Source: Candidatus Aenigmatarchaeota archaeon
Lineage (GTDB): Archaea; Aenigmatarchaeota; Aenigmatarchaeia; Aenigmatarchaeales; JAHLMR01
Assembly: GCA_018920255.1 (NCBI GenBank)
Contig: JAHLMR010000001.1
Location: 1,058 to 65,057, forward strand
DNA length: 64,000 nucleotides
Reading direction: 5' to 3'
In this document: positions 6,111-27,832 of the stretch, piece by piece
Layout: each line of letters begins with the position of its first letter
Numbering within the stretch: position 1 is the stretch's first letter
Notes under the pieces: generated by a model
The model's database searches: none
Told to the model about the DNA's origin: nothing
The model's input: the letters and a program-made list of their open reading frames with translations, nothing else
Position numbers and translations under genes: made by a program

Positions 6111-7052
6111 TTAAAGTTGTAATTTTGTTTTTTCTCCTGTTTTTAAATTTATTTTATAGTTCAGTGGCAATATTGATACTCCCTTATAATTTATTGGTTC
6201 TTTAATTGCATTAGTTATTATAATATCTGGTACTATATCTAAAATAAAATCAAGTTTTTTAATTTGTATAAATCTCTTTTTCAAAATATTAATAGGATAT
6301 TCTGTTCCTAAATAATAAAGAAATTTTATTCCATTTATATCTATTAAAGATGGGTTTAAAATTTGTGTTTCAGAATTATCAAAAATTATTTTTGAATTAT
6401 CTTCAGAAAGTAAAAAAATTATATCTGTATTAAATTTTATATTATCTTGGAATGAAACCTCCATATCATATTCTAATAAGTTTAGTTTATGTATCGGAAC
6501 GTCTGGAAAGATTATTTCCTTTGCTTTTATTTTTTTATTTTTTCCTTCTTCAATACATATGCCTGAAACTGCTATAACATCATCTTCTGAAATTTTTGAT
6601 ATTAATTCTTGTTCTGCTTCAACTTTTATTATTCCTGTTGGATCTTCTAATTCAAAAAAATTTTCTTTTTTATTGAAAACAATTCCTATAATAATACATT
6701 CCTTTGATGCGTTAGATATAGAAACAGCATCTTTTAATTCAACTTTTTGAGATAATATTTTTTGTATTTGATCCCATCTTCTAAAATATTTTTCAGTATA
6801 TTTTGTTATTGATATTTTTTTATTTTCTTCGAATAAAAAGTTATTTTCTGTTTCAATATTTTTTATTATACTAATTTCTGGAAATAATTTATAAAGAAAA
6901 TTTTTAGAAATTAAATAGCTATTGTTTGATACTAGCCTTTCTTTCAAATAAATTAATTGATTTTCAGATAGAGACTTAATTTTTTCTTTAGCTTCTGGTT
7001 GTATTAAAAATCCTTCTTTTATAAGTTCTAAAATATTATCCATAAAAATCAA
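6111..7052 (-). CDS. DP1-like protein: DNA polymerase D small-subunit N-terminal/OB region without a phosphoesterase domain
   Basis: The N-terminus ILELIKEGFLIQPEAKEKI resembles the conserved DP1 N-terminal helical domain (GYLITPSAY pattern). A central OB-like segment is present. No calcineurin-type PDE motifs (GNHD etc.) are present. It lies directly downstream of orc1/cdc6, the position dp1 holds in many Euryarchaeota. Confidence 0.4.
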   Translation of the reverse strand: MIFMDNILELIKEGFLIQPEAKEKIKSLSENQLIYLKERLVSNNSYLISKNFLYKLFPEISIIKNIETENNFLFEENKKISITKYTEKYFRRWDQIQKILSQKVELKDAVSISNASKECIIIGIVFNKKENFFELEDPTGIIKVEAEQELISKISEDDVIAVSGICIEEGKNKKIKAKEIIFPDVPIHKLNLLEYDMEVSFQDNIKFNTDIIFLLSEDNSKIIFDNSETQILNPSLIDINGIKFLYYLGTEYPINILKKRFIQIKKLDFILDIVPDIIITNAIKEPINYKGVSILPLNYKINLKTGEKTKLQL

Positions 7053-7055
7053 CAG

Positions 7056-8300
7056 TTATTTATTAAAAATTTCTTCAAGAAATTTTTCTATTTTATTATA
7101 AATGTGATCAGGAATGTTTAATGTAATCGTTCTTGTCCTTCCATATCTTCCTTTTGATATTATTCTTGTGCTTATTATTCCAAATAAATCTAATTCTGCT
7201 ATAAGATCACTTATTCTTCTTGTTGTAAGCTGTTTTAATCTATGTTCTTTACAAATTTTAATATATTGTTCTATAACATCTGAAGTATATATTTCTTGTG
7301 AGTTTCCATTTAAAGATTTTTGCGGATTTGATTTTACAAGCCTACATATTGCATAAAGAATAGCTTGACTTTGCTTTGGTTGCAGTCTAACTATTTCTAA
7401 AATATTATCTGTATCAATTTTACTTTCTGCTAAATCAACGTGCTTTAATCTAACCTTTGAATCCCCTTCTCTTTCAGCTAATTCTGCTGCTACTCTTAAA
7501 AGATCTAACGCTTTTCTTGCATCTCCATTTTCTTGTGCTGCTAATGCAGCACATTTTTCAATCACTCCTTCTTCAATAGCATCATCAGAAAAAGCTATTT
7601 TTGCTCTTTGTTTTAATATGTCAATAAGCTCAATAGCATTATATGGTGGAAATATAATTTCTTCCTCATTTAAACTTGATTTAACTCTTGGATCTAATTT
7701 TGATATTAAATTTAAATCATTTGTTATACCTATTATAGAAATTTTTGCTTTCTTTAATTCTTGATTTATACGTGTTATGTTGTATAGTATTTCGTCACCT
7801 GTTCGGTATATCAATGCATCTATTTCATCTATTATTAAAATAATAATCCTTTCTTCTGTATCTATAACATCATAAAACATTTGATATATTTTTTGTGTTG
7901 GCAGTCCAGTAAACGGTACTTCGACATTAAATTCTTTTAATATTTGTGCTATAAGTCTATATTCTGTATCAGCAGAATGTTTTAATTTGCAATTTATGTA
8001 TATAACCTTTATTTTATGACCTGTACTTTCAGCTGCTTTTTCTAAATGATTACAAACAAACCTAGTAACACATGTTTTTCCTGTTCCTGTTCTTCCGTAA
8101 ATAAATATATTACTTGGTTTTGATCCTCTTAATGCTGGTGCTAATATTTTACTTATTGTATTAATTTGTTCTTCTCTGTGTGGTATTGTTTCAGGTGTAA
8201 AAGAAATAGTTAATGCATTCCTTTGTATAAAAATCGGTTTTGATTCTAAATACTTGTTAAAAATATTTGTTATATTGTTAGCATTATTATTAACATCCAT
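7056..8300 (-). CDS. cdc6: Orc1/Cdc6 replication initiator (full length: AAA+ plus C-terminal winged helix)
   Basis: N-terminal signature FTPETIPHREEQI, Walker A IYGRTGTGKT and Walker B IIILIIDEIDAL are present. The C-terminal winged helix is ~414 aa from the start. A GGAGG RBS lies upstream. Confidence 0.9.
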   Translation of the reverse strand: MDVNNNANNITNIFNKYLESKPIFIQRNALTISFTPETIPHREEQINTISKILAPALRGSKPSNIFIYGRTGTGKTCVTRFVCNHLEKAAESTGHKIKVIYINCKLKHSADTEYRLIAQILKEFNVEVPFTGLPTQKIYQMFYDVIDTEERIIILIIDEIDALIYRTGDEILYNITRINQELKKAKISIIGITNDLNLISKLDPRVKSSLNEEEIIFPPYNAIELIDILKQRAKIAFSDDAIEEGVIEKCAALAAQENGDARKALDLLRVAAELAEREGDSKVRLKHVDLAESKIDTDNILEIVRLQPKQSQAILYAICRLVKSNPQKSLNGNSQEIYTSDVIEQYIKICKEHRLKQLTTRRISDLIAELDLFGIISTRIISKGRYGRTRTITLNIPDHIYNKIEKFLEEIFNK

Positions 8301-8334
8301 AGGAAAAACCTCCTCTTCTTTTGTAAGAAGAGAT

Positions 8335-8465
8335 TATTGTCATGAACATATTTAAAGTTTATGTTCACTTTTTGGTTTACATAGGAAATGAAGGGGTGTG
8401 AATATCAATAAAATTATAATTATTCGTTTTGTGAAGATTTTATATTCACATGATTATTCATTTTC
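8335..8465. promoter_or_regulatory. Inverted repeats built from GTGAA/TTCAC half-sites upstream of orc1/cdc6
   Basis: TCATGAACATA...TATGTTCAC forms an inverted repeat with a 12-nt spacer. GTGTGAATAT...ATATTCACAT forms another with a ~35-nt spacer. The half-site matches the TTCACGTGAA palindrome at 19.4-20.0 kb. Confidence 0.4.
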
Positions 8466-8619
8466 ATTAGAAAATAATAACTCTCACCCTTAAATTTCCC
8501 ATAGAAATTGTTTATTCTTTTTAAGAATAAACCTTTATTTCTTATAACATTGTTATTTAATAATATATAATAATTGTATTTGTTCCTATTGAAATAATGG
8601 GGTATGGGTTATAATTAAT

Positions 8620-18506: not shown

Positions 18507-18809
18507 ATGAAGAGAGGAAGACCTTTAGGTCCAGACATTAAAAAAATACAATTAATTTTAGATGTTTTATATCAATACCCTTCTGGGGTATGGTTAAGAC
18601 AAATTTCTAAAATTTCAAAACTTCCAGTATCTACAGTGCATTTTTATCTTTCTCATTATTTTGAACCTTTTATAGAAAATATAGGATTTAAAACCGAATC
18701 AGGAAGATATTTAGGATTTAGATTAATAAAATTAAAAAGAATGGTAAACGCGGCAGATATTTTTGCATATATAAATTTAAAAAGAAGTATAAAAAGTATA
18801 ACATCATAA
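18507..18809 (+). CDS. Small winged-helix DNA-binding protein (hypothetical)
   Basis: 100-aa basic protein with an HTH-like segment (GVWLRQISKISKLPVSTVHFYLSHY). Confidence 0.35.
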   Translation: MKRGRPLGPDIKKIQLILDVLYQYPSGVWLRQISKISKLPVSTVHFYLSHYFEPFIENIGFKTESGRYLGFRLIKLKRMVNAADIFAYINLKRSIKSITS

Positions 18810-19346
18810 TAATTTTTTACTATAAATAATAGAATAAATAGGGCCTTTTTGTGTTAATTTTGAAGAAAACAACTTTATTTCGTTAATATTAATTATTTCA
18901 TTTATTTTAATATTTTTAGTGATTTTTAAAAAATTTTCTTTATTTTTAATATTTTTTACTCTTCCTAAAGTTATATGTGGTATGTAGTCTCTTTTTTCTT
19001 TTTCAAATCCATATTTATTAAGTTCAGTATCAAGTAATTCCATCATAGATTTAATGATCCAAGGATTTTCTAATTCAATAAAAACAACTCTTATAAAATT
19101 CTCATTTGGAAAAAAATTTAATTTATTTAAACGAATTTCAAATGATTTATAATTATTACAAACATTATCTATACTTTTTTTAATGTTTTCTATTTGATTT
19201 TCATCTACTTCACCTAAAAATTTAAGACATATATGTAAATTTTCTGGTTCAACTAATTTTATATCAGCATCTTTAAGTTTTTCTTGAATTTCTAATATTT
19301 TTTTCTTTATATTTTCAGGAATATTTATTCCTATAAAAAGACGCAT
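18804..19346 (-). CDS. thpR: RNA 2',3'-cyclic phosphodiesterase (2H phosphoesterase, LigT/ThpR family)
   Basis: Two H-x-T/S-x motifs are present (HICLKF and HITLGR) in a ~180-aa protein. Start trimmed to MRLFIGINIP (CAT 19344-19346). Confidence 0.75.
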   Translation of the reverse strand: MRLFIGINIPENIKKKILEIQEKLKDADIKLVEPENLHICLKFLGEVDENQIENIKKSIDNVCNNYKSFEIRLNKLNFFPNENFIRVVFIELENPWIIKSMMELLDTELNKYGFEKEKRDYIPHITLGRVKNIKNKENFLKITKNIKINEIININEIKLFSSKLTQKGPIYSIIYSKKLL

Positions 19347-19463
19347 AAATATATATTTTAAATTATAAAATTTAAATATTTCTAATTTATATAACATAGA
19401 AATATTACATAGTTATATTTATAAATTTTATAGCATAAAAATTTAAAAAATTTATTAAAATTG

Positions 19464-20015
19464 TTCACGTGAATATTTCGTGAATGTTCACGTGTAAGAC
19501 TTGATATTCACGTGAACATTAAAAAGTAAGACTTTTATACTATAACAAAAACTAACTTTTCATAAAATCTTCACGTGAAATTAATTTTAAAATTATAACA
19601 TTTAATTATCTTCACGTGAATATTCACATGAAGATAACATCATTATAAAAATATTCACGTGAACTTCACGTGAAGATAAAATGAACATCCAATTAAAATT
19701 ACAAATTATTGAATATTCTTTTTTAAAATCTCTCACAAATAACTATAAAAATAAATAACAAATTTTTAATTATTAATAGAATCTCTCACAAATTTAATTA
19801 AATCTAATTTTTATAATTTAATAATTATAAAATATTCTTTTTAAAATATATAACATAAAATATTTAATATTAAATATATTTTCATATTCATTATTTTTAA
19901 TTTCATAATAAAAATAATGAGAAAAATCTTTAAATAACTTATTTAACTAATAAAAATAAGTGTTTACAACACAAAAATGAATATTTTGTGAATATTCATA
20001 TGAAGTTCACGTGAA
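19464..20015. repeat. Array of the 10-bp perfect palindrome TTCACGTGAA flanking an AT-rich stretch; candidate ORB/mini-ORB elements
   Basis: Seven exact copies start at 19464, 19507, 19570, 19611, 19654, 19665 and 20006. One-mismatch copies start at 19487 (TTCACGTGTA) and 19623 (TTCACATGAA), and TTCATATGAA lies at 19996. They bracket a ~300-bp nearly pure A/T segment (19681-19985). Confidence 0.8.
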
Positions 20016-20020
20016 TAAAG

Positions 20021-21121
20021 GTGAAATGTTTGGAAGAAGAAAAATATTATAGAAAATTTAATTGGTCTGCAAATCCATTTGTTTTAAAAGTAGACCCAAA
20101 ATTATTTATAGGATATGAACAACAGGTTCGTGCACTTTGTAGACATATAGAAGATATGCATAAAATAGCACTTCTTACAGGTGCAACTGGTGCAGGAAAA
20201 ACAACAACATTAAAATGGTTAGAAATGAATTATCCAGAAGCAAAATATATTTCAAAGCCACCTTCAAATCCTGAAGACTTAGTTAATATTTTTTTAGAAT
20301 TCTTTCCACTTTCATTTTTTGAAAGATTATTTAAAAGAAAACCAACATTAAATTCTCTTCCTTCATATATTAATAAAAAAATGAAATCAAAGTTAATTTT
20401 ACTTATAGATGAAGCACATGAAGCTTCAAGAGATGTTTTTGAGTGGCTTAGAGTGTTAACAGATCAAATAGATAATATTTCTATTGTTTTAGCAGGTTTA
20501 CCAATTATTGAAGAAAAAATAAAGCACGAATTAGAATCATTAAATCAAAGAATAACAACAAGAGTAACGCTTACAGCATTAAGTCAAACAGAAACAGGAC
20601 TTTTAATTCAAAAAAGAATAGAATCTGTTGGAGGAAAAGGTACAGAGCCATTTACACAGGCGGCAATTCATGAAATTTATAAAAGAACAGGAGGATTCCC
20701 AAGAGAAGTTTTGAAGTTTTGTGATAGATTAATTTTAAGTGCATCAGAAAAACAATTAGATAAAATAGATGCAGGTGATGTTATAAATCATAAAGATGTT
20801 AATTTTCCATCAGAACAAAAAATATTAGAACCATCAGTAACATATGTTGATAGACCACTTCCGACACAAGATATAAATTCATTACCTTCAAAGCAAAGAA
20901 AAATATTAGAAATTCTTTCAAAGCAAGATTGGTTAAGTCCATCGGCTATAATTGAACAGCTTGATATGTCAAATTATAAAAGTAGAGGTCATGCAGTAAG
21001 GTCAATAAATAATATTCTTAAAAGATTAATGATTGATGGTTTTGTACAAAGAGAATCGCATGGGAAAGCATTTTTATATGCATTAACACCAAAAGTAAAG
21101 GTTATTTTAGCTAAACATTAA
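20021..21121 (+). CDS. Divergent Orc1/Cdc6-like AAA+ ATPase with C-terminal winged helix
   Basis: A GTG start is inferred from the ORF track. Walker A is LLTGATGAGKTT, Walker B is LILLIDEAHE, and sensor-like T/R residues follow. The C-terminal wH-like segment is KQRKILEILSKQDWLSPSAIIEQL. It lies immediately downstream of the palindrome array. Confidence 0.5.
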   Translation: MKCLEEEKYYRKFNWSANPFVLKVDPKLFIGYEQQVRALCRHIEDMHKIALLTGATGAGKTTTLKWLEMNYPEAKYISKPPSNPEDLVNIFLEFFPLSFFERLFKRKPTLNSLPSYINKKMKSKLILLIDEAHEASRDVFEWLRVLTDQIDNISIVLAGLPIIEEKIKHELESLNQRITTRVTLTALSQTETGLLIQKRIESVGGKGTEPFTQAAIHEIYKRTGGFPREVLKFCDRLILSASEKQLDKIDAGDVINHKDVNFPSEQKILEPSVTYVDRPLPTQDINSLPSKQRKILEILSKQDWLSPSAIIEQLDMSNYKSRGHAVRSINNILKRLMIDGFVQRESHGKAFLYALTPKVKVILAKH

Positions 21122-21169
21122 ATTTAAATATTTAATAATTTATTTTCTATAAAGAGAGAGGTGAGAAAA

Positions 21170-21433
21170 ATGCCAGCAGACAAAATAAGAGGAAAAGAAT
21201 TTTTAGGTAAAGTAATAGTTTCAAAAGATACAGGAAAAAGATTTGGAGTAGTTTCTGATATAGCATTTATAACTGAAAGTGGAGAATTAATGAATTTAAT
21301 AGTAACGGATCCAACAATATCTGCAGCAGAATTAGGTTTACAAGAGGATGAAAAAGGAAGGCTTTTAATTCCATTTTCAGCTGTAAGAAGTGCTGGAGAT
21401 TTTGTAATAATAGACGAAAAAGATATTATTTAA
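21170..21433 (+). CDS. PRC-barrel domain protein
   Basis: ATG at 21170 is preceded by an AGAGAGGTGAG RBS. The motif FLGKVIVSKDTGKRFGVVSDIAF is typical of PRC barrels. Confidence 0.6.
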   Translation: MPADKIRGKEFLGKVIVSKDTGKRFGVVSDIAFITESGELMNLIVTDPTISAAELGLQEDEKGRLLIPFSAVRSAGDFVIIDEKDII

Positions 21434-23546: not shown

Positions 23547-23600
23547 AAAATTTATTATAATATTAAACTTTATATTATTTGCTTATGACATTAGTTGTAA

Positions 23601-23807
23601 CTATTCTAGAATTTTTTTTCTAACATTAATAATATCTTCTTTTTTTACTATTTTTCTATTATTTTTAAGAGCGTTTGCATATGCTTCGCAAGATATATCA
23701 AAAATAATCTTTTCAAGCAATTCTGCAAATTTTAAGGTAGCACTATTACTTACACGCATACCTGTCTTTGAAAGTATTTTTTTTGAAATATTTGTACTAA
23801 TTATCAT
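23601..23807 (-). CDS. Archaeal histone (HMf-like histone fold)
   Basis: 68-aa protein whose pattern ISKKILSKTGMRVSNSATLKFAELLEKIIFDISCEAYANALKNNRKIVKKEDI aligns with the HMfB histone fold. Confidence 0.7.
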   Translation of the reverse strand: MIISTNISKKILSKTGMRVSNSATLKFAELLEKIIFDISCEAYANALKNNRKIVKKEDIINVRKKILE

Positions 23808-24069
23808 AATTAATTCTTTAAACCTTATTAAATATAAAACTTTGTGAAAAAATACTTTTGTTATACTTTAAAAAATATATTTTTTAAAAAATATTACAAA
23901 AAAAATTTATTTTATAAAAACTATTATAAAATATTTTTTTTATTATATATATTATTAAAGATATGTTTTTTTAAGTTATTCGTGAGACATATACTTTAAA
24001 ATATATTTTATAGAATATATAAATATGCTTAAATATAGGTTATTACAAAATTTTTATAGGTGAAATAGC

Positions 24070-24904: not shown

Positions 24905-25121
24905 TATATTTTATTGTAAAAATTATATTTTATAAAAAATTTTTTTAAAAATATTTTTAATTTAAAATATTATAATAAATATATTATAGAAAGAATAAAA
25001 AATTTTATATATATTAAAATTATTATATTTTATTATATTTTCTACAAAATATATTTTATAGAATATTTAAATAAAATTAACTTACAAAAAAATGTGAGAG
25101 TTCATAGGGCGCGTGAAGATT

Positions 25122-27031: not shown

Positions 27032-27832
27032 CTATTTATGATAAATATCTTTTATTCTTTCTATTGCCTTTAATACGTCGCACATTTCAATTTTTTCAGA
27101 ATTTCTATTTTCTGCATTTTCAGCAGAATTTTTTAATAAGAAAAGCCCAACTCTTAAATCACCTATTTCATATGTTTTTCTTACAATTTCTTCAAATGCT
27201 TCATATTCAAAACTATTTGGTTTAAATGCCATAAATTCTCTTTCTCTTAAAATACCTCTAATTTCTTCAAAATTATATTTTTTAAATTCTATTCTTTCTA
27301 GAAGTAATCTTGATAAAAGTCTTTCATCTAATCTGATAATATTTTCAGATGTATTTGTTATTAAAATTATTGATTTATATTTTATATCTTCAAGTATTCT
27401 ATAAATAAAATTCCAATCATGAAGTCTATCAACTTCATCAAAAGCAAAAACAACACCTTCATAAGTATTTAATTTTTTTATGATAATATCTATAAGTTCC
27501 TCAGGATATCTTTCATTCGTTCTTATACCAATTTGTTCAGCAACATAATAGATTATTTTATTATTTGTATCATGTTTCCAACAATTTATATAAATAGTTA
27601 GATAATTCCCAACATTTTCTTCAATCATTTTTCTGAAAATAAATTTTACGCATGCAGTTTTTCCTATTCCAGGACTTCCTGTTATAAGTATATTTCTTCC
27701 ATTTCTTTTCAATAAAAGAGGTTTAATACATTCTGCAATATATTTATGTTCTTCTTCTCTGTATGGAAGTAGTCTTGGAAGGAAACTTGATTCCAAAACC
27801 CCAGGATTTATTAAAAGGTTCATTAATATCAC
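27032..27832 (-). CDS. Orc1/Cdc6-type AAA+ domain protein lacking the C-terminal winged helix
   Basis: Classic N-terminus FLPRLLPYREEEHKYIAECIKPLL, Walker A ILITGSPGIGKTA and Walker B VVFAFDEVD are present. The protein ends at 266 aa with no wH domain. Confidence 0.65.
   Translation of the reverse strand: MILMNLLINPGVLESSFLPRLLPYREEEHKYIAECIKPLLLKRNGRNILITGSPGIGKTACVKFIFRKMIEENVGNYLTIYINCWKHDTNNKIIYYVAEQIGIRTNERYPEELIDIIIKKLNTYEGVVFAFDEVDRLHDWNFIYRILEDIKYKSIILITNTSENIIRLDERLLSRLLLERIEFKKYNFEEIRGILREREFMAFKPNSFEYEAFEEIVRKTYEIGDLRVGLFLLKNSAENAENRNSEKIEMCDVLKAIERIKDIYHK

What the first reader, a model, noticed from the sequence alone, without database searches (positions are those of the whole stretch)
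19440..20020. Candidate replication origin: TTCACGTGAA palindrome array flanking an AT-rich unwinding element next to an Orc1/Cdc6-like gene
Within a 620-bp non-coding region there are seven exact copies of the 10-bp palindrome TTCACGTGAA and at least three one- or two-mismatch copies. Most are clustered at 19464-19674, and one lies at 20006-20015 just 6 bp before the start of the Orc1/Cdc6-like gene. They bracket a ~300-bp almost pure A/T stretch (19681-19985) that also contains a direct repeat, ATCTCTCACAAAT, occurring twice. ORB elements flanking a DUE beside an initiator gene is the canonical archaeal oriC layout. The dyad T-TCAC-GTGA-A resembles the core of archaeal mini-ORBs (TCCA..GGAA type). 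Alternatively, it could be a dense operator array for a bHLH-like or other palindrome-binding regulator.
Basis: seen in the sequence. Interest (0 to 1): 0.65.

Follow-up and report, generated by a model that had tools for sequence, protein, structure and literature searches.

The report
Phased palindrome array beside DPANN ATPase
A real array of a 10-bp palindrome, conserved across a whole group of tiny archaea and spaced exactly one DNA turn apart, sits in front of a conserved DNA-binding ATPase gene and looks like that protein's private docking platform near the replication origin, whereas the textbook origin lies about 11 kb away next to the true Orc1 gene.

Summary
Seven exact TTCACGTGAA copies plus three near-copies lie in 19464-20015, and none elsewhere in 64 kb (expected 0.01).

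The origin interpretation is only partly supported. The neighbouring gene (20021-21121) is not an Orc1/Cdc6 family member. It has an ExeA/MuB-like AAA+ module whose fold resembles Cdc6/Orc1, MuB and TnsC, joined by a disordered linker to a MarR/ArsR-type winged helix. The true Orc1 is at 7056-8300. It is flanked by three canonical G-string ORBs (8301-8619), a layout conserved in relatives.

The organism is an Aenigmatarchaeota (DPANN) archaeon. In 37 of 72 related genomes (GC 28-56%) the same exact palindrome forms arrays upstream of the orthologous ATPase. Site spacings are quantised at multiples of 10.5 bp, so all sites face one side of the helix. In the other genomes, TTCAC half-sites with the same phasing are embedded in the neighbouring LigT coding sequence.

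The sites bracket the ATPase promoter. There is one such locus per genome sampled, inside a replication-gene island.

Best reading: this is a cognate, one-face assembly platform for the adjacent ATPase, and at minimum autoregulatory. A role as a centromere-like landmark or as a non-Orc origin remains open. I found no published description.

The parts
19464..19674 (.). Distal cluster of eight TTCACGTGAA sites. Six are exact (19464, 19507, 19570, 19611, 19654, 19665) and two have one mismatch (19487, 19623). An extra GTGAA half-site lies at 19480. All are in helical phase.
   Evidence: Phasing R = 0.92 at 10.5 bp, reached by 9 of 5000 random placements. Half-sites listed.
19681..19985 (.). AT-rich spacer (11.5% G+C) between the distal and proximal sites, with no ORF of 45 aa or more. 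It is not conserved as such in relatives.
19728..19793 (+). Two copies of ATCTCTCACAAAT (19728-19740 and 19781-19793), 53 bp or five helical turns apart. They contain CTCAC, a variant of the TTCAC half-site. TCTCACAAA-like elements recur in the same spacer in relatives.
   Evidence: Recurrence seen by eye in L001, L004, L019 and L022.
19988..20015 (.). Proximal sites directly in front of the ATPase start codon: GTGAA half-site at 19988, TTCATATGAA at 19995 (two mismatches), and exact TTCACGTGAA at 20006. Orthologous loci usually carry a pair at about -44 and -10 that brackets a TTTAAATA-type TATA box.
20021..21121 (+). Gene for the AAA+ / winged-helix ATPase (366 aa from GTG 20021, or 363 aa from TTG 20030 after a GGTGA). 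It has an AAA_22 ATPase with intact Walker A and B motifs, a lid, a disordered linker (residues 260-282) and a C-terminal MarR/ArsR-type wHTH with an invariant recognition helix A-x-R-S-x-N-N-I-L-x-R. It is the presumed binder of TTCAC.
21161..21433 (+). PRC-barrel protein gene (90 aa). It lies downstream of the ATPase gene in nearly all related loci long enough to show it, and only 60-80 bp downstream in one clade, which suggests an operon.
18804..19397 (-). LigT (2'-5' RNA ligase / cyclic phosphodiesterase) gene, divergent from the ATPase gene. In relatives where it abuts the ATPase gene, its coding sequence carries the phased TTCAC half-sites.
18507..18809 (+). Small ORF (100 aa) with a weak wHTH signature (the orf100 family). 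It is a second candidate palindrome binder. Its presence near the array goes with many full palindromes.
8301..8619 (.). Canonical oriC candidate, which is not part of the array. It has three ORB-like elements with G-strings (8379-8401 on +, 8481-8508 on -, 8581-8607 on +) upstream of the true orc1, plus an ATAACATTGTTAT palindrome at 8543-8556.
   Evidence: ORB core motif from PMC1904270.
7056..8300 (-). True Orc1/Cdc6 gene (414 aa), followed by a PolD-small-subunit-like gene at 6111-7052.

Best explanation
The region is a conserved cis-element of Aenigmatarchaeota: a helically phased array of TTCAC half-sites, here mostly paired as the palindrome TTCACGTGAA. It serves as the cognate docking platform of the ATPase encoded next to it.

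Proposed mechanism:
1. Inferred: the C-terminal MarR/ArsR-type winged helix reads TTCAC in the major groove, with two copies bound on each palindrome.
2. Shown: successive sites are always a whole number of 10.5-bp turns apart, so every bound copy sits on the same face of the DNA.
3. Inferred: the AAA+ modules, tethered by a roughly 25-residue flexible linker, oligomerise along or around the DNA in an ATP-dependent way. These modules fold like Cdc6/Orc1, MuB and TnsC, all ATPases that assemble on double-stranded DNA.
4. Position shown, effect inferred: the assembly covers the TATA box and start region of the ATPase gene, and probably the divergent LigT or small-wHTH promoter. It is therefore at least autoregulatory.
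5. Role inferred: the array builds one unique nucleoprotein landmark per chromosome, a few kb from the Orc1/ORB origin. That landmark most plausibly serves a chromosome-level function, such as a centromere-like tether or an accessory replication element.

It is not the canonical Orc1-dependent oriC, which lies at 8301-8619.
For: - The array is real and unique in the window.
- The same exact 10-mer forms arrays of three or more sites directly upstream of the orthologous ATPase in 37 of 72 evaluable species-level genomes. These span 28-56% G+C and down to about 42% protein identity.
- A metagenome scan recovered about 35 further ATPase-linked arrays.
- Adjacent-site spacings fall only at 11, 21, 32, 42, 52, 63, 73, 84, 94 and 104 bp. 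Spectral power at a 10.5-bp period is 86, against less than 10 off-peak.
- In genomes without palindrome arrays, TTCAC half-sites are 5-10 times enriched from -1200 to 0, mostly on one strand, and again phased at 10.5 bp.
- Those half-sites extend into the LigT ORF, which carries 202 against 125 expected from synonymous-codon shuffles. That is about 8 per gene, against about 1.7 in LigT genes located elsewhere.
- The recognition helix of the winged helix is invariant across the family, as is the half-site.
- The sites flank the TATA-like box and start codon.
- Only about 9 of 196 exact sites in roughly 1 Mb of related DNA lie more than 1.5 kb from the ATPase start.
- Canonical ORBs lie next to the true orc1.
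Against: - No binding experiment exists, so the link between protein and site rests on adjacency and co-conservation.
- A small wHTH ORF (orf100 family) is also nearby, and its presence goes with the number of full palindromes. It could be the real palindrome binder, or a co-binder.
- The related genomes are not independent samples, so the site counts overstate the number of independent events.
- A Nanopusillus homologue of the ATPase has no such array upstream, so the protein can function without an adjacent array.
- The biological role of the complex is not established.
Confidence: 0.6

Rival explanations
1. It is a genuine replication origin, secondary or even the main one. The AAA+ / winged-helix protein would act as a non-Orc, DnaA-like initiator: it oligomerises on the phased sites and melts the neighbouring AT-rich DNA.
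For: - The domain order matches that of initiators, with an AAA+ module, a lid and a C-terminal DNA-binding domain. The fold is closest to Cdc6/Orc1.
- Phased same-orientation arrays resemble arrays of low-affinity DnaA boxes (own knowledge).
- The intergenic region is long, with an 11.5% G+C stretch in the window.
- There is a single locus per genome sampled, inside a replication-gene island with PolB, Orc1, DnaG, RadA and RPA.
- The protein is conserved even in highly reduced DPANN genomes.
- Pyrococcus provides a precedent for initiator repeats inside a coding gene, dp1 (PMC1904270).
Against: - A complete canonical origin, with orc1 and inverted G-string ORBs, lies only 4.5-14 kb away in these genomes. 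Two origins that close together would be redundant.
- The AT-rich spacer is not conserved. One clade has only about 60-130 bp of non-coding DNA.
- The local skew minimum and the orientation switch are at about 9 kb, not 19.7 kb.
- The winged helix is of transcription-factor type.
Confidence: 0.15
2. It is a centromere-like or division-coupling site. The array would be an origin-proximal anchor. The ATPase, possibly with the small wHTH protein, builds a partition-type complex there, and the co-transcribed PRC-barrel protein links that complex to the division machinery.
For: - The architecture matches plasmid and archaeal centromeres (own knowledge of R1 parC/ParR and tubC/TubR): phased iterons immediately upstream of, and overlapping the promoter of, the operon that encodes their binder. 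SegB likewise binds a centromeric sequence adjacent to segAB (PMC12139799 abstract).
- The site is unique and lies near the origin.
- In some genomes the sites spill into flanking coding sequences, including the ATPase gene itself. Bacterial parS does the same inside parB (own knowledge).
- The PRC-barrel gene is invariably downstream, and PRC-barrel proteins CdpB1-3 act in archaeal division (bioRxiv 10.1101/2023.03.28.534520).
- The 10-bp core is identical to the core of bacterial parS.
Against: - No ParA-, ParM- or TubZ-type motor and no ParB was found among the roughly 45 window ORFs scanned.
- AAA+ ATPases are not known segregation motors.
- Not all PRC-barrel proteins act in division.
- The parS resemblance stops at the 10-bp core. 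The flanks are anti-correlated and the spacings differ.
Confidence: 0.2
3. It is only a transcriptional operator. The ATPase or the small wHTH protein would be a regulator of the divergent ATPase and LigT (or orf100) promoters, and the array would have no chromosome-level role.
For: - The sites bracket the TATA box and the start codon.
- The winged helix is of MarR/ArsR repressor type.
- Orc1-2 of Sulfolobus shows that Orc-like AAA+/wH proteins can be pure regulators (PMC9738581 abstract).
- A second wHTH gene is adjacent.
Against: - There are 5-10 palindromes plus 15-30 half-sites over 0.3-1.2 kb, strictly phased and maintained even inside coding sequence. That is far more than operators normally need.
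- A regulator whose only target is itself would be unlikely to survive in genomes of 0.6-1 Mb.
- The spacer is kept unusually long in compact genomes.
Confidence: 0.2
4. It is a cluster of degenerate mini-ORBs bound by the canonical Orc1 (7056-8300). It would form an outlying part of one extended origin region, like the second ORB cluster in Pyrococcus dp1.
For: - TTCACGTGAA matches TTCCAGTGGAA at 8 of 11 positions if one gap is allowed (sequence comparison; ORB sequences from PMC1904270).
- Pyrococcus Orc1 binds two ORB clusters flanking its gene, one of them inside coding sequence.
Against: - The ORBs of these same genomes follow TTCYAnnnGAAAY plus a G-string and are degenerate. The palindrome is invariant, 1 bp shorter, and lacks the perfectly conserved TTCC motif.
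- No G-string ORB occurs in any array.
- The array tracks the ATPase gene, not orc1.
Confidence: 0.05

Closest known systems
Archaeal oriC (ORB repeats flanking a DUE beside orc1/cdc6)
   Same: Repeated initiator-type sites in a long AT-rich spacer, next to a gene for an AAA+ protein with a winged helix, inside a cluster of replication genes.
   Different: The repeats lack the TTCC..GAA(A) core and the G-string. The adjacent protein fails the Orc1/Cdc6 sequence models and has a MarR/ArsR-type winged helix. A textbook ORB origin exists separately at 8301-8619. Strict 10.5-bp phasing is not a described ORB feature.
Bacterial oriC DnaA-box arrays and plasmid iterons
   Same: An AAA+ module with a C-terminal HTH domain. 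Arrays of short sites at about 11-bp phasing, often in one orientation, that support cooperative oligomer assembly. The sites overlap the initiator's own promoter, giving autoregulation.
   Different: There is no homology to DnaA beyond the AAA+ fold. No conserved unwinding element was found. A separate Orc1 origin lies nearby.
Partition centromeres upstream of their own operon (R1 parC/ParR, tubC/TubR, archaeal SegB sites, pNOB8 AspA)
   Same: Helically phased iterons immediately upstream of, and overlapping the promoter of, the operon that encodes the binding protein. A winged-helix or small DNA-binding protein. A unique site per replicon, proximal to the origin.
   Different: The NTPase is an AAA+ fused to the DNA-binding domain, not a ParA, ParM or TubZ motor. 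No segregation function has been shown.
Bacterial parS (TGTTTCACGTGAAACA) bound by ParB
   Same: The central 10 bp, TTCACGTGAA, are identical. The sites are origin-proximal.
   Different: Flanks differ: position -1 is T in 9% of sites here against 98% in parS, and position -3 is A here against T in parS. parS arrays on viral contigs have non-helical spacings of 24, 26 and 34 bp. No ParB was found. The shared core is most likely coincidence or convergence.
MuB / TnsC / TniB / ExeA AAA+ ATPases (AAA_22)
   Different: The gene is not transposon-associated, because its chromosomal synteny is stable across a phylum. It carries a sequence-specific winged helix and a dedicated site array.
Sulfolobus Orc1-2 (non-initiator Orc1 acting as a DNA-damage regulator)
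   Same: An Orc-like AAA+ plus winged-helix protein that acts on specific promoter motifs rather than at an origin. The gene here lies beside radA and rpa.
   Different: Orc1-2 is a true Orc1 orthologue with many genomic targets. The protein here has essentially one target locus.

Membership tests
Archaeal oriC | ORB or mini-ORB repeats with conserved TTCC and GAA core motifs, often followed by a G-string | tested here: not met
   The palindrome lacks TTCC and is 1 bp shorter than the mini-ORB. A regex for ORB plus G-string finds none in any ATPase-upstream array, but does find them upstream of orc1 in the window, L036, L071 and L078 (L058's were seen by eye). Motif definition from PMC1904270.
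Archaeal oriC | Adjacent orc1/cdc6 initiator gene | tested here: not met
   20021-21121 is not hit by TIGR02928, Cdc6_lid or Cdc6_C. 7056-8300 is hit at 1e-127. Only the AAA+ fold is Orc-like.
Archaeal oriC | AT-rich duplex unwinding element flanked by the repeats | tested here: inconclusive
   An 11.5% G+C stretch of 305 bp is present in the window. It is no more AT-rich than other spacers. It is variable or absent in relatives, and one clade has a spacer of only 60-130 bp.
Archaeal oriC | Nucleotide-skew inflection or gene-orientation switch | tested here: inconclusive
   Within 64 kb the cumulative GC-skew minimum and the strand switch are at about 9 kb, near orc1, not at 19.7 kb. The skew here is dominated by the coding strand, and the replication-associated term is about zero.
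Archaeal oriC | Replication initiates there (marker frequency, 2D gels, ARS activity) | not testable with these tools
   No read-depth data and no whole chromosome could be retrieved.
Orc1/Cdc6 protein family | Significant match to Orc1/Cdc6 sequence models | tested here: not met
   The best NCBIfam hit is the ExeA-like pepcterm_ATPase at 1e-28. A PDB profile search gives MuB at 5e-5 and Orc1 (2qby_A) at 0.57.
Orc1/Cdc6 protein family | AAA+ initiator-type fold with a lid domain | tested here: met
Orc1/Cdc6 protein family | Cdc6-type C-terminal winged helix | tested here: not met
Bacterial ParB-parS | 16-bp palindrome TGTTNCACGTGAAACA | tested here: not met
   The 10-bp core is identical, but the flanks differ: A-n-(not T) here against T-G-T in true parS (196 sites, against viral parS arrays).
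Bacterial ParB-parS | ParB (HTH plus CTPase) and ParA encoded nearby | tested here: not met
   No ParB or ParA family hit among the roughly 45 ORFs scanned between 1 and 41.5 kb. ORFs beyond 41.5 kb were not scanned.
Operon-linked partition centromere (parC/tubC/SegB-site type) | Phased repeats directly upstream of, and overlapping the promoter of, the operon encoding their binder | tested here: met
Operon-linked partition centromere (parC/tubC/SegB-site type) | Partner cytomotive or ParA-type NTPase, and a demonstrated segregation function | tested here: not met
   The partner NTPase is an AAA+. Segregation function is not testable here.
MuB/TnsC/TniB transposition ATPases | Encoded within a transposon beside a transposase | tested here: not met
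   The chromosomal synteny LigT - array - ATPase - PRC - RadA - RPA - histone is stable across the 80 related loci and two large contigs, with no transposase.

The most novel reading that the evidence does not exclude
Aenigmatarchaeota, and perhaps other DPANN archaea, may possess a previously unrecognised chromosome-landmark system. It would consist of an AAA+ / wHTH ATPase that polymerises on a unique, helically phased iteron array whose core happens to equal the bacterial parS core, together with a PRC-barrel partner. The system would act either as an archaeal centromere or division-coupling device, or as a non-Orc, DnaA-like replication initiator working beside the Orc1 origin.
Probability: 0.3. 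Interest if true: 0.85.

Novelty: new variant of a known kind. Interest (0 to 1): 0.62.

Why it matters
How DPANN archaea, and most archaea outside Sulfolobus, segregate chromosomes and coordinate replication with division is unknown.

This locus offers a concrete, testable cis/trans pair that is conserved across a phylum:
- an invariant 10-bp site,
- strict one-turn phasing of the sites,
- one locus per genome near oriC,
- a neighbouring ATPase whose fold matches DNA-polymerising AAA+ proteins.

The locus also shows a clear case of a protein-binding array maintained inside a coding sequence (LigT), which is a dual-coding constraint.

For annotation, it warns that an AAA+ gene next to repeats should not be read as 'Orc1 + ORB'. 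It also pinpoints the likely true origin of this genome at 8301-8619.

Tried and rejected
- GC-skew and coding-strand-corrected skew in the window. The skew is dominated by transcription strand and the replication term is about zero, so it is not decisive.
- Whole-chromosome skew on CP070662.1 or on the 727 and 740 kb contigs. Only flanks of 10 kb or less can be fetched, so this was not possible.
- Viral-contig scan for paired palindromes. It returned only genuine bacterial-type parS arrays (TGTTTCACGTGAAACA, spacings 24, 26 and 34 bp), which are unrelated.
- Metagenome scan with non-parS flanks. About 35 of 120 hits are ATPase loci. The rest are pairs in high-G+C bacteria, tandem satellites or low-G+C pairs of unknown origin. 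None carries the ATPase, and I did not pursue them.
- Nanopusillus homologue context. It has no array, only a tRNA gene upstream, and the neighbouring proteins have no family hits.
- Rfam and ORF search of the spacer. No RNA family and no credible ORF were found.
- Bacterial promoter and terminator scan. It is irrelevant for an archaeon, and its one 'terminator' is just two adjacent palindromes.
- Single-strand folding z-score. It is a trivial consequence of the palindromes.
- Literature searches for the motif, for Aenigmatarchaeota origins and for DPANN segregation. I found no prior description.
- PDB sequence search with orf100. No hits.
Full report
**1. The observation.**
TTCACGTGAA occurs exactly seven times in the 64-kb window, and all seven lie between 19464 and 20015. 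Dinucleotide shuffles expect 0.01 copies. One-mismatch copies lie at 19487 and 19623, and a two-mismatch copy at 19995. The 623-bp spacer (19398-20020) is the second longest in a window whose median spacer is 133 bp. It holds no credible ORF and no Rfam family. The stretch 19681-19985 is 11.5% G+C, and ATCTCTCACAAAT occurs twice, 53 bp apart. First, the eight distal sites are in helical register: R = 0.92 at a 10.5-bp period, reached by only 9 of 5000 random placements. Second, the TTCAC/GTGAA half-site density is 30 per kb here against 1.1 per kb in the rest of the window.

**2. The organism and the neighbouring genes.**
The window is 25% G+C. The protein encoded at 20021-21121 is 100% identical to an 'AAA family ATPase' of a Candidatus Aenigmatarchaeota MAG, and it has hundreds of homologues at 54-78% identity in that phylum. 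Pfam finds AAA_22 plus a weak C-terminal winged helix. The best NCBIfam hit is the ExeA-like pepcterm ATPase at 1e-28, below its cut-off, and no Orc1 model hits the protein. By contrast, 7056-8300 is a textbook Orc1/Cdc6 (TIGR02928 1e-127, Cdc6_lid, Cdc6_C), followed by a PolD-small-subunit-like gene. The window is a replication island. It contains PolB, Orc1, a DnaG-like Toprim protein, LigT, the ATPase, a PRC-barrel protein, RadA, an RPA-like protein and a histone. It also holds a third Orc1-type AAA+ at 27032-27832 that lacks a winged helix.

**3. Where the canonical origin is.**
The 319 bp upstream of the true orc1 (8301-8619) contain three elements of the ORB type with G-strings: TACATAGGAAATGAAGGGGTGTG, the reverse complement of CTCTCACCCTTAAATTTCCCATAGAAAT, and GTTCCTATTGAAATAATGGGGTATGGG. 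In four related genomes where orc1 falls inside the fetched locus (L036, L058, L071, L078), the same layout is present: inverted TTCCAnnnGAAAnnnnGGGGTG elements flanking an AT-rich stretch. These elements match the Pyrococcus ORB sequences and their 'perfectly conserved TTCC and GAA' motifs (PMC1904270). A regex for ORB plus G-string finds such elements next to orc1 but none in any ATPase-upstream array. The cumulative GC-skew minimum of the window and the switch in gene orientation also fall near 9 kb. However, a coding-strand-corrected analysis shows the replication-associated skew is too weak to be decisive.

**4. The array is conserved across a phylum and is tied to the ATPase gene.**
Using an alignment of 22 homologues, I fetched 80 species-level loci from GTDB representative genomes. 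Nearly all are Aenigmatarchaeota MAGs, with 28-56% G+C and ATPase identity down to about 41%.
- The exact 10-mer recurs in arrays directly upstream of the ATPase gene.
- 37 of 72 evaluable loci have three or more sites with at most one mismatch within 1.2 kb upstream, and up to 10 sites.
- Only about nine of 196 exact sites lie more than 1.5 kb from the gene start.
- A metagenome scan for paired sites with non-parS flanks recovered about 35 further ATPase-linked arrays. The remaining hits (high-G+C bacterial pairs, tandem satellites and low-G+C pairs of unknown origin) never carried the ATPase.
- Synteny is stable: LigT, array, ATPase, PRC barrel, then RadA, RPA and histone on the opposite strand. 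It extends to CBS, Toprim and TGT on 727 kb and 740 kb contigs.
- orc1 lies 4.5-5 kb upstream in four loci and 11.7 kb upstream in the window. In L322 the conserved gene order implies a distance of about 13-14 kb.

It marks one origin-proximal locus.

**5. Helical phasing.**
Across all loci, the 171 distances between adjacent sites fall only at 11-12, 20-23, 30-34, 41-43, 51-55, 62-64, 71-74, 82-85, 93-96 and 101-106 bp. Spectral power at a 10.5-bp period is 86, against less than 10 away from the peak. Every site therefore faces the same side of B-DNA. The extended logo from 196 sites is A-n-(not T)-TTCACGTGAA-(not A)-n-T, and the commonest variant is TTCACATGAA. The related genomes are not independent samples. 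Even so, the positions of individual sites differ between loci while the quantisation persists.

**6. A second architecture: half-sites embedded in coding sequence.**
In the clade where LigT abuts the ATPase gene, with spacers of 60-130 bp, full palindromes are rare. The half-site TTCAC/GTGAA is nevertheless 5-10 times enriched (16-20 per kb against about 2 per kb) from -1200 to 0. Control pentamers are flat. The half-sites are mostly on one strand (481 against 269) and are again phased at 10.5 bp, with power 192. They lie inside the LigT ORF and the ORF beyond it. LigT genes that abut the ATPase gene carry 202 half-sites, against 125 expected from synonymous-codon shuffles (median z 2.6). That is about 8 per gene, against about 1.7 per gene for LigT genes located elsewhere. 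The constraint is therefore on the DNA and not on the LigT protein. In some genomes exact sites also occur inside the ATPase ORF, at +316 and around +566 to +581.

**7. The protein.**
AlphaFold (pLDDT 87.7) gives an AAA+ base and lid (residues 1-255), a disordered linker (260-282) and a winged helix (290-365).
- Walker A (GxTGxGKT), Walker B (DEAHE) and several arginines are invariant.
- By sequence the protein is nearer MuB and ExeA than Orc1.
- Its recognition helix, (H/N)-A-x-R-S-x-N-N-I-L-x-R-L, is invariant in both architectural groups, mirroring the invariance of TTCAC.
- Full-length relatives exist in Nanoarchaeota (Nanopusillus, Nanobsidianus, Jingweiarchaeum). A Nanopusillus locus has no TTCAC array upstream.

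**8. Position relative to promoters.**
In many loci a pair of palindromes at about -44 and -10 brackets a TTTAAATA-like box. In the short-spacer clade, half-sites abut the same kind of box. Binding there should occlude TBP/TFB or RNA polymerase. Autoregulation is therefore the minimal function. This is inferred from position and has not been shown.

**9. What it most likely is.**
I commit to the following reading. The array is the cognate, one-face assembly platform of the adjacent AAA+ / wHTH ATPase. The winged helices read TTCAC. The one-turn phasing lets the tethered AAA+ modules oligomerise in an ATP-dependent way. The complex covers the gene's own promoter and forms a single nucleoprotein landmark near oriC. 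My confidence in this is about 0.6. Three features argue that the landmark has a chromosome-level role beyond autoregulation:
- the number, extent and phasing of the sites;
- their maintenance inside coding DNA;
- the retention of the protein in genomes of 0.6-1 Mb.

**10. The rival readings.**
- A true non-Orc origin (about 0.15). This is weakened by the complete ORB origin a few kb away and by the lack of a conserved unwinding element.
- A centromere-like or division-coupling site (about 0.2). This is suggested by the parC/tubC/SegB-like layout and by the PRC-barrel gene that is always downstream. PRC-barrel proteins CdpB1-3 act in haloarchaeal division, although not all family members do.
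- A plain operator (about 0.2).
- Mini-ORBs bound by Orc1 (about 0.05).
- In addition, a small wHTH ORF (orf100 family; window 18507-18809) is a second candidate binder. Loci that have it show a median of six palindromes, against one in loci without it. This contrast is confounded by phylogeny.

**11. The parS resemblance.**
TTCACGTGAA is the central 10 bp of the perfect bacterial parS. The only literature hits for the string are ParB/parS papers and plant G-box work. A viral-contig scan returned true parS arrays (TGTTTCACGTGAAACA) with spacings of 24, 26 and 34 bp. The archaeal sites have different flanks, with T at position -1 in 9% of sites against 98% in parS, and they have helical spacings. 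No ParB was found among the ORFs scanned. I regard the shared core as coincidence or convergence.

**12. Novelty.**
I found no paper describing this element or assigning a function to the protein family. I rate it a new variant of a known kind: a site-specific AAA+ protein with a phased iteron array. The most novel reading still open is an undescribed archaeal centromere or initiator system.

Noticed in passing
window 8301-8619: Likely canonical oriC. Three ORB-like elements with G-strings (8379-8401 on +, 8481-8508 on -, 8581-8607 on +) lie upstream of the true orc1 (7056-8300). The same inverted-ORB layout occurs upstream of orc1 in L036, L058, L071 and L078.
   Followed up: yes
window 8543-8556; L036 ~1057, L058 ~1437, L071 ~2076, L078 ~1668; L017, L019, L021, L022 at -450 to -570 from the ATPase start: A second palindrome, ATAACAnTGTTAT, sits in the AT-rich centre of every ORB origin examined. 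It also sits at the distal edge of the TTCACGTGAA array in four genomes. There are 15 hits in the 80 loci (17 with the window) against about 4 expected in the loci. Its binder is unknown, and it could be an origin accessory motif.
   Followed up: partly
window 27032-27832 (-): A third Orc-type gene. It encodes 266 aa that match Orc1/Cdc6 models over the AAA+ and lid only (TIGR02928 5.5e-41, Cdc6_lid 1.7e-10), with no C-terminal winged helix. It looks like a winged-helix-less Orc1 paralogue.
   Followed up: partly
L035, L037-L047, L049, L077, L078, L080: about -650 to -100 from the ATPase start (LigT ORF): Phased TTCAC half-sites are embedded in the LigT coding sequence and in the next ORF. One example in L044 is CTTCACGTACTTCACGTTCATTTCACCTATGTTCACATC. 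This is an overlapping DNA-binding and coding constraint.
   Followed up: yes
window 18507-18809 (+); L001 5220-5504 (-); orthologues in 32 of 72 loci: A small (about 95-100 aa) ORF with weak IclR/MarR/Csa3-type wHTH hits lies next to the array. Its presence goes with many full palindromes (median 6 against 1). It is a possible co-binder.
   Followed up: partly
L033 and L034 at +316; L041, L051 and L061 at +343 and +566 to +581; L057, L060, L065 and L072 at about +825 from the ATPase start: Exact or one-mismatch palindromes lie inside the ATPase coding sequence itself in several lineages.
   Followed up: no
L010 (JBHIEE010000119.1): The record is titled 'Candidatus Aminicenantia bacterium', yet it carries the same Aenigmatarchaeota gene order and the same site positions as L009. 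The contig is probably mis-binned.
   Followed up: no
window 23547-24069 and 24905-25121: Two further long, extremely AT-rich spacers: 523 bp at 16.6% G+C, and 217 bp at 10% G+C with 100-bp windows down to 2%. They lie beside the histone/RPA genes and two small conserved ORFs. No repeats were examined there.
   Followed up: no
L206, L207, L233, L253, L255, L259, L260, L267, L268, L275, L286, L303, L313, L314: Low-G+C (25-33%) metagenome contigs carry pairs of TTCACGTGAA 30-33 bp apart, with no ATPase homologue in the fetched stretch. Their origin, whether eukaryotic, organellar or another archaeal locus, was not determined.
   Followed up: no
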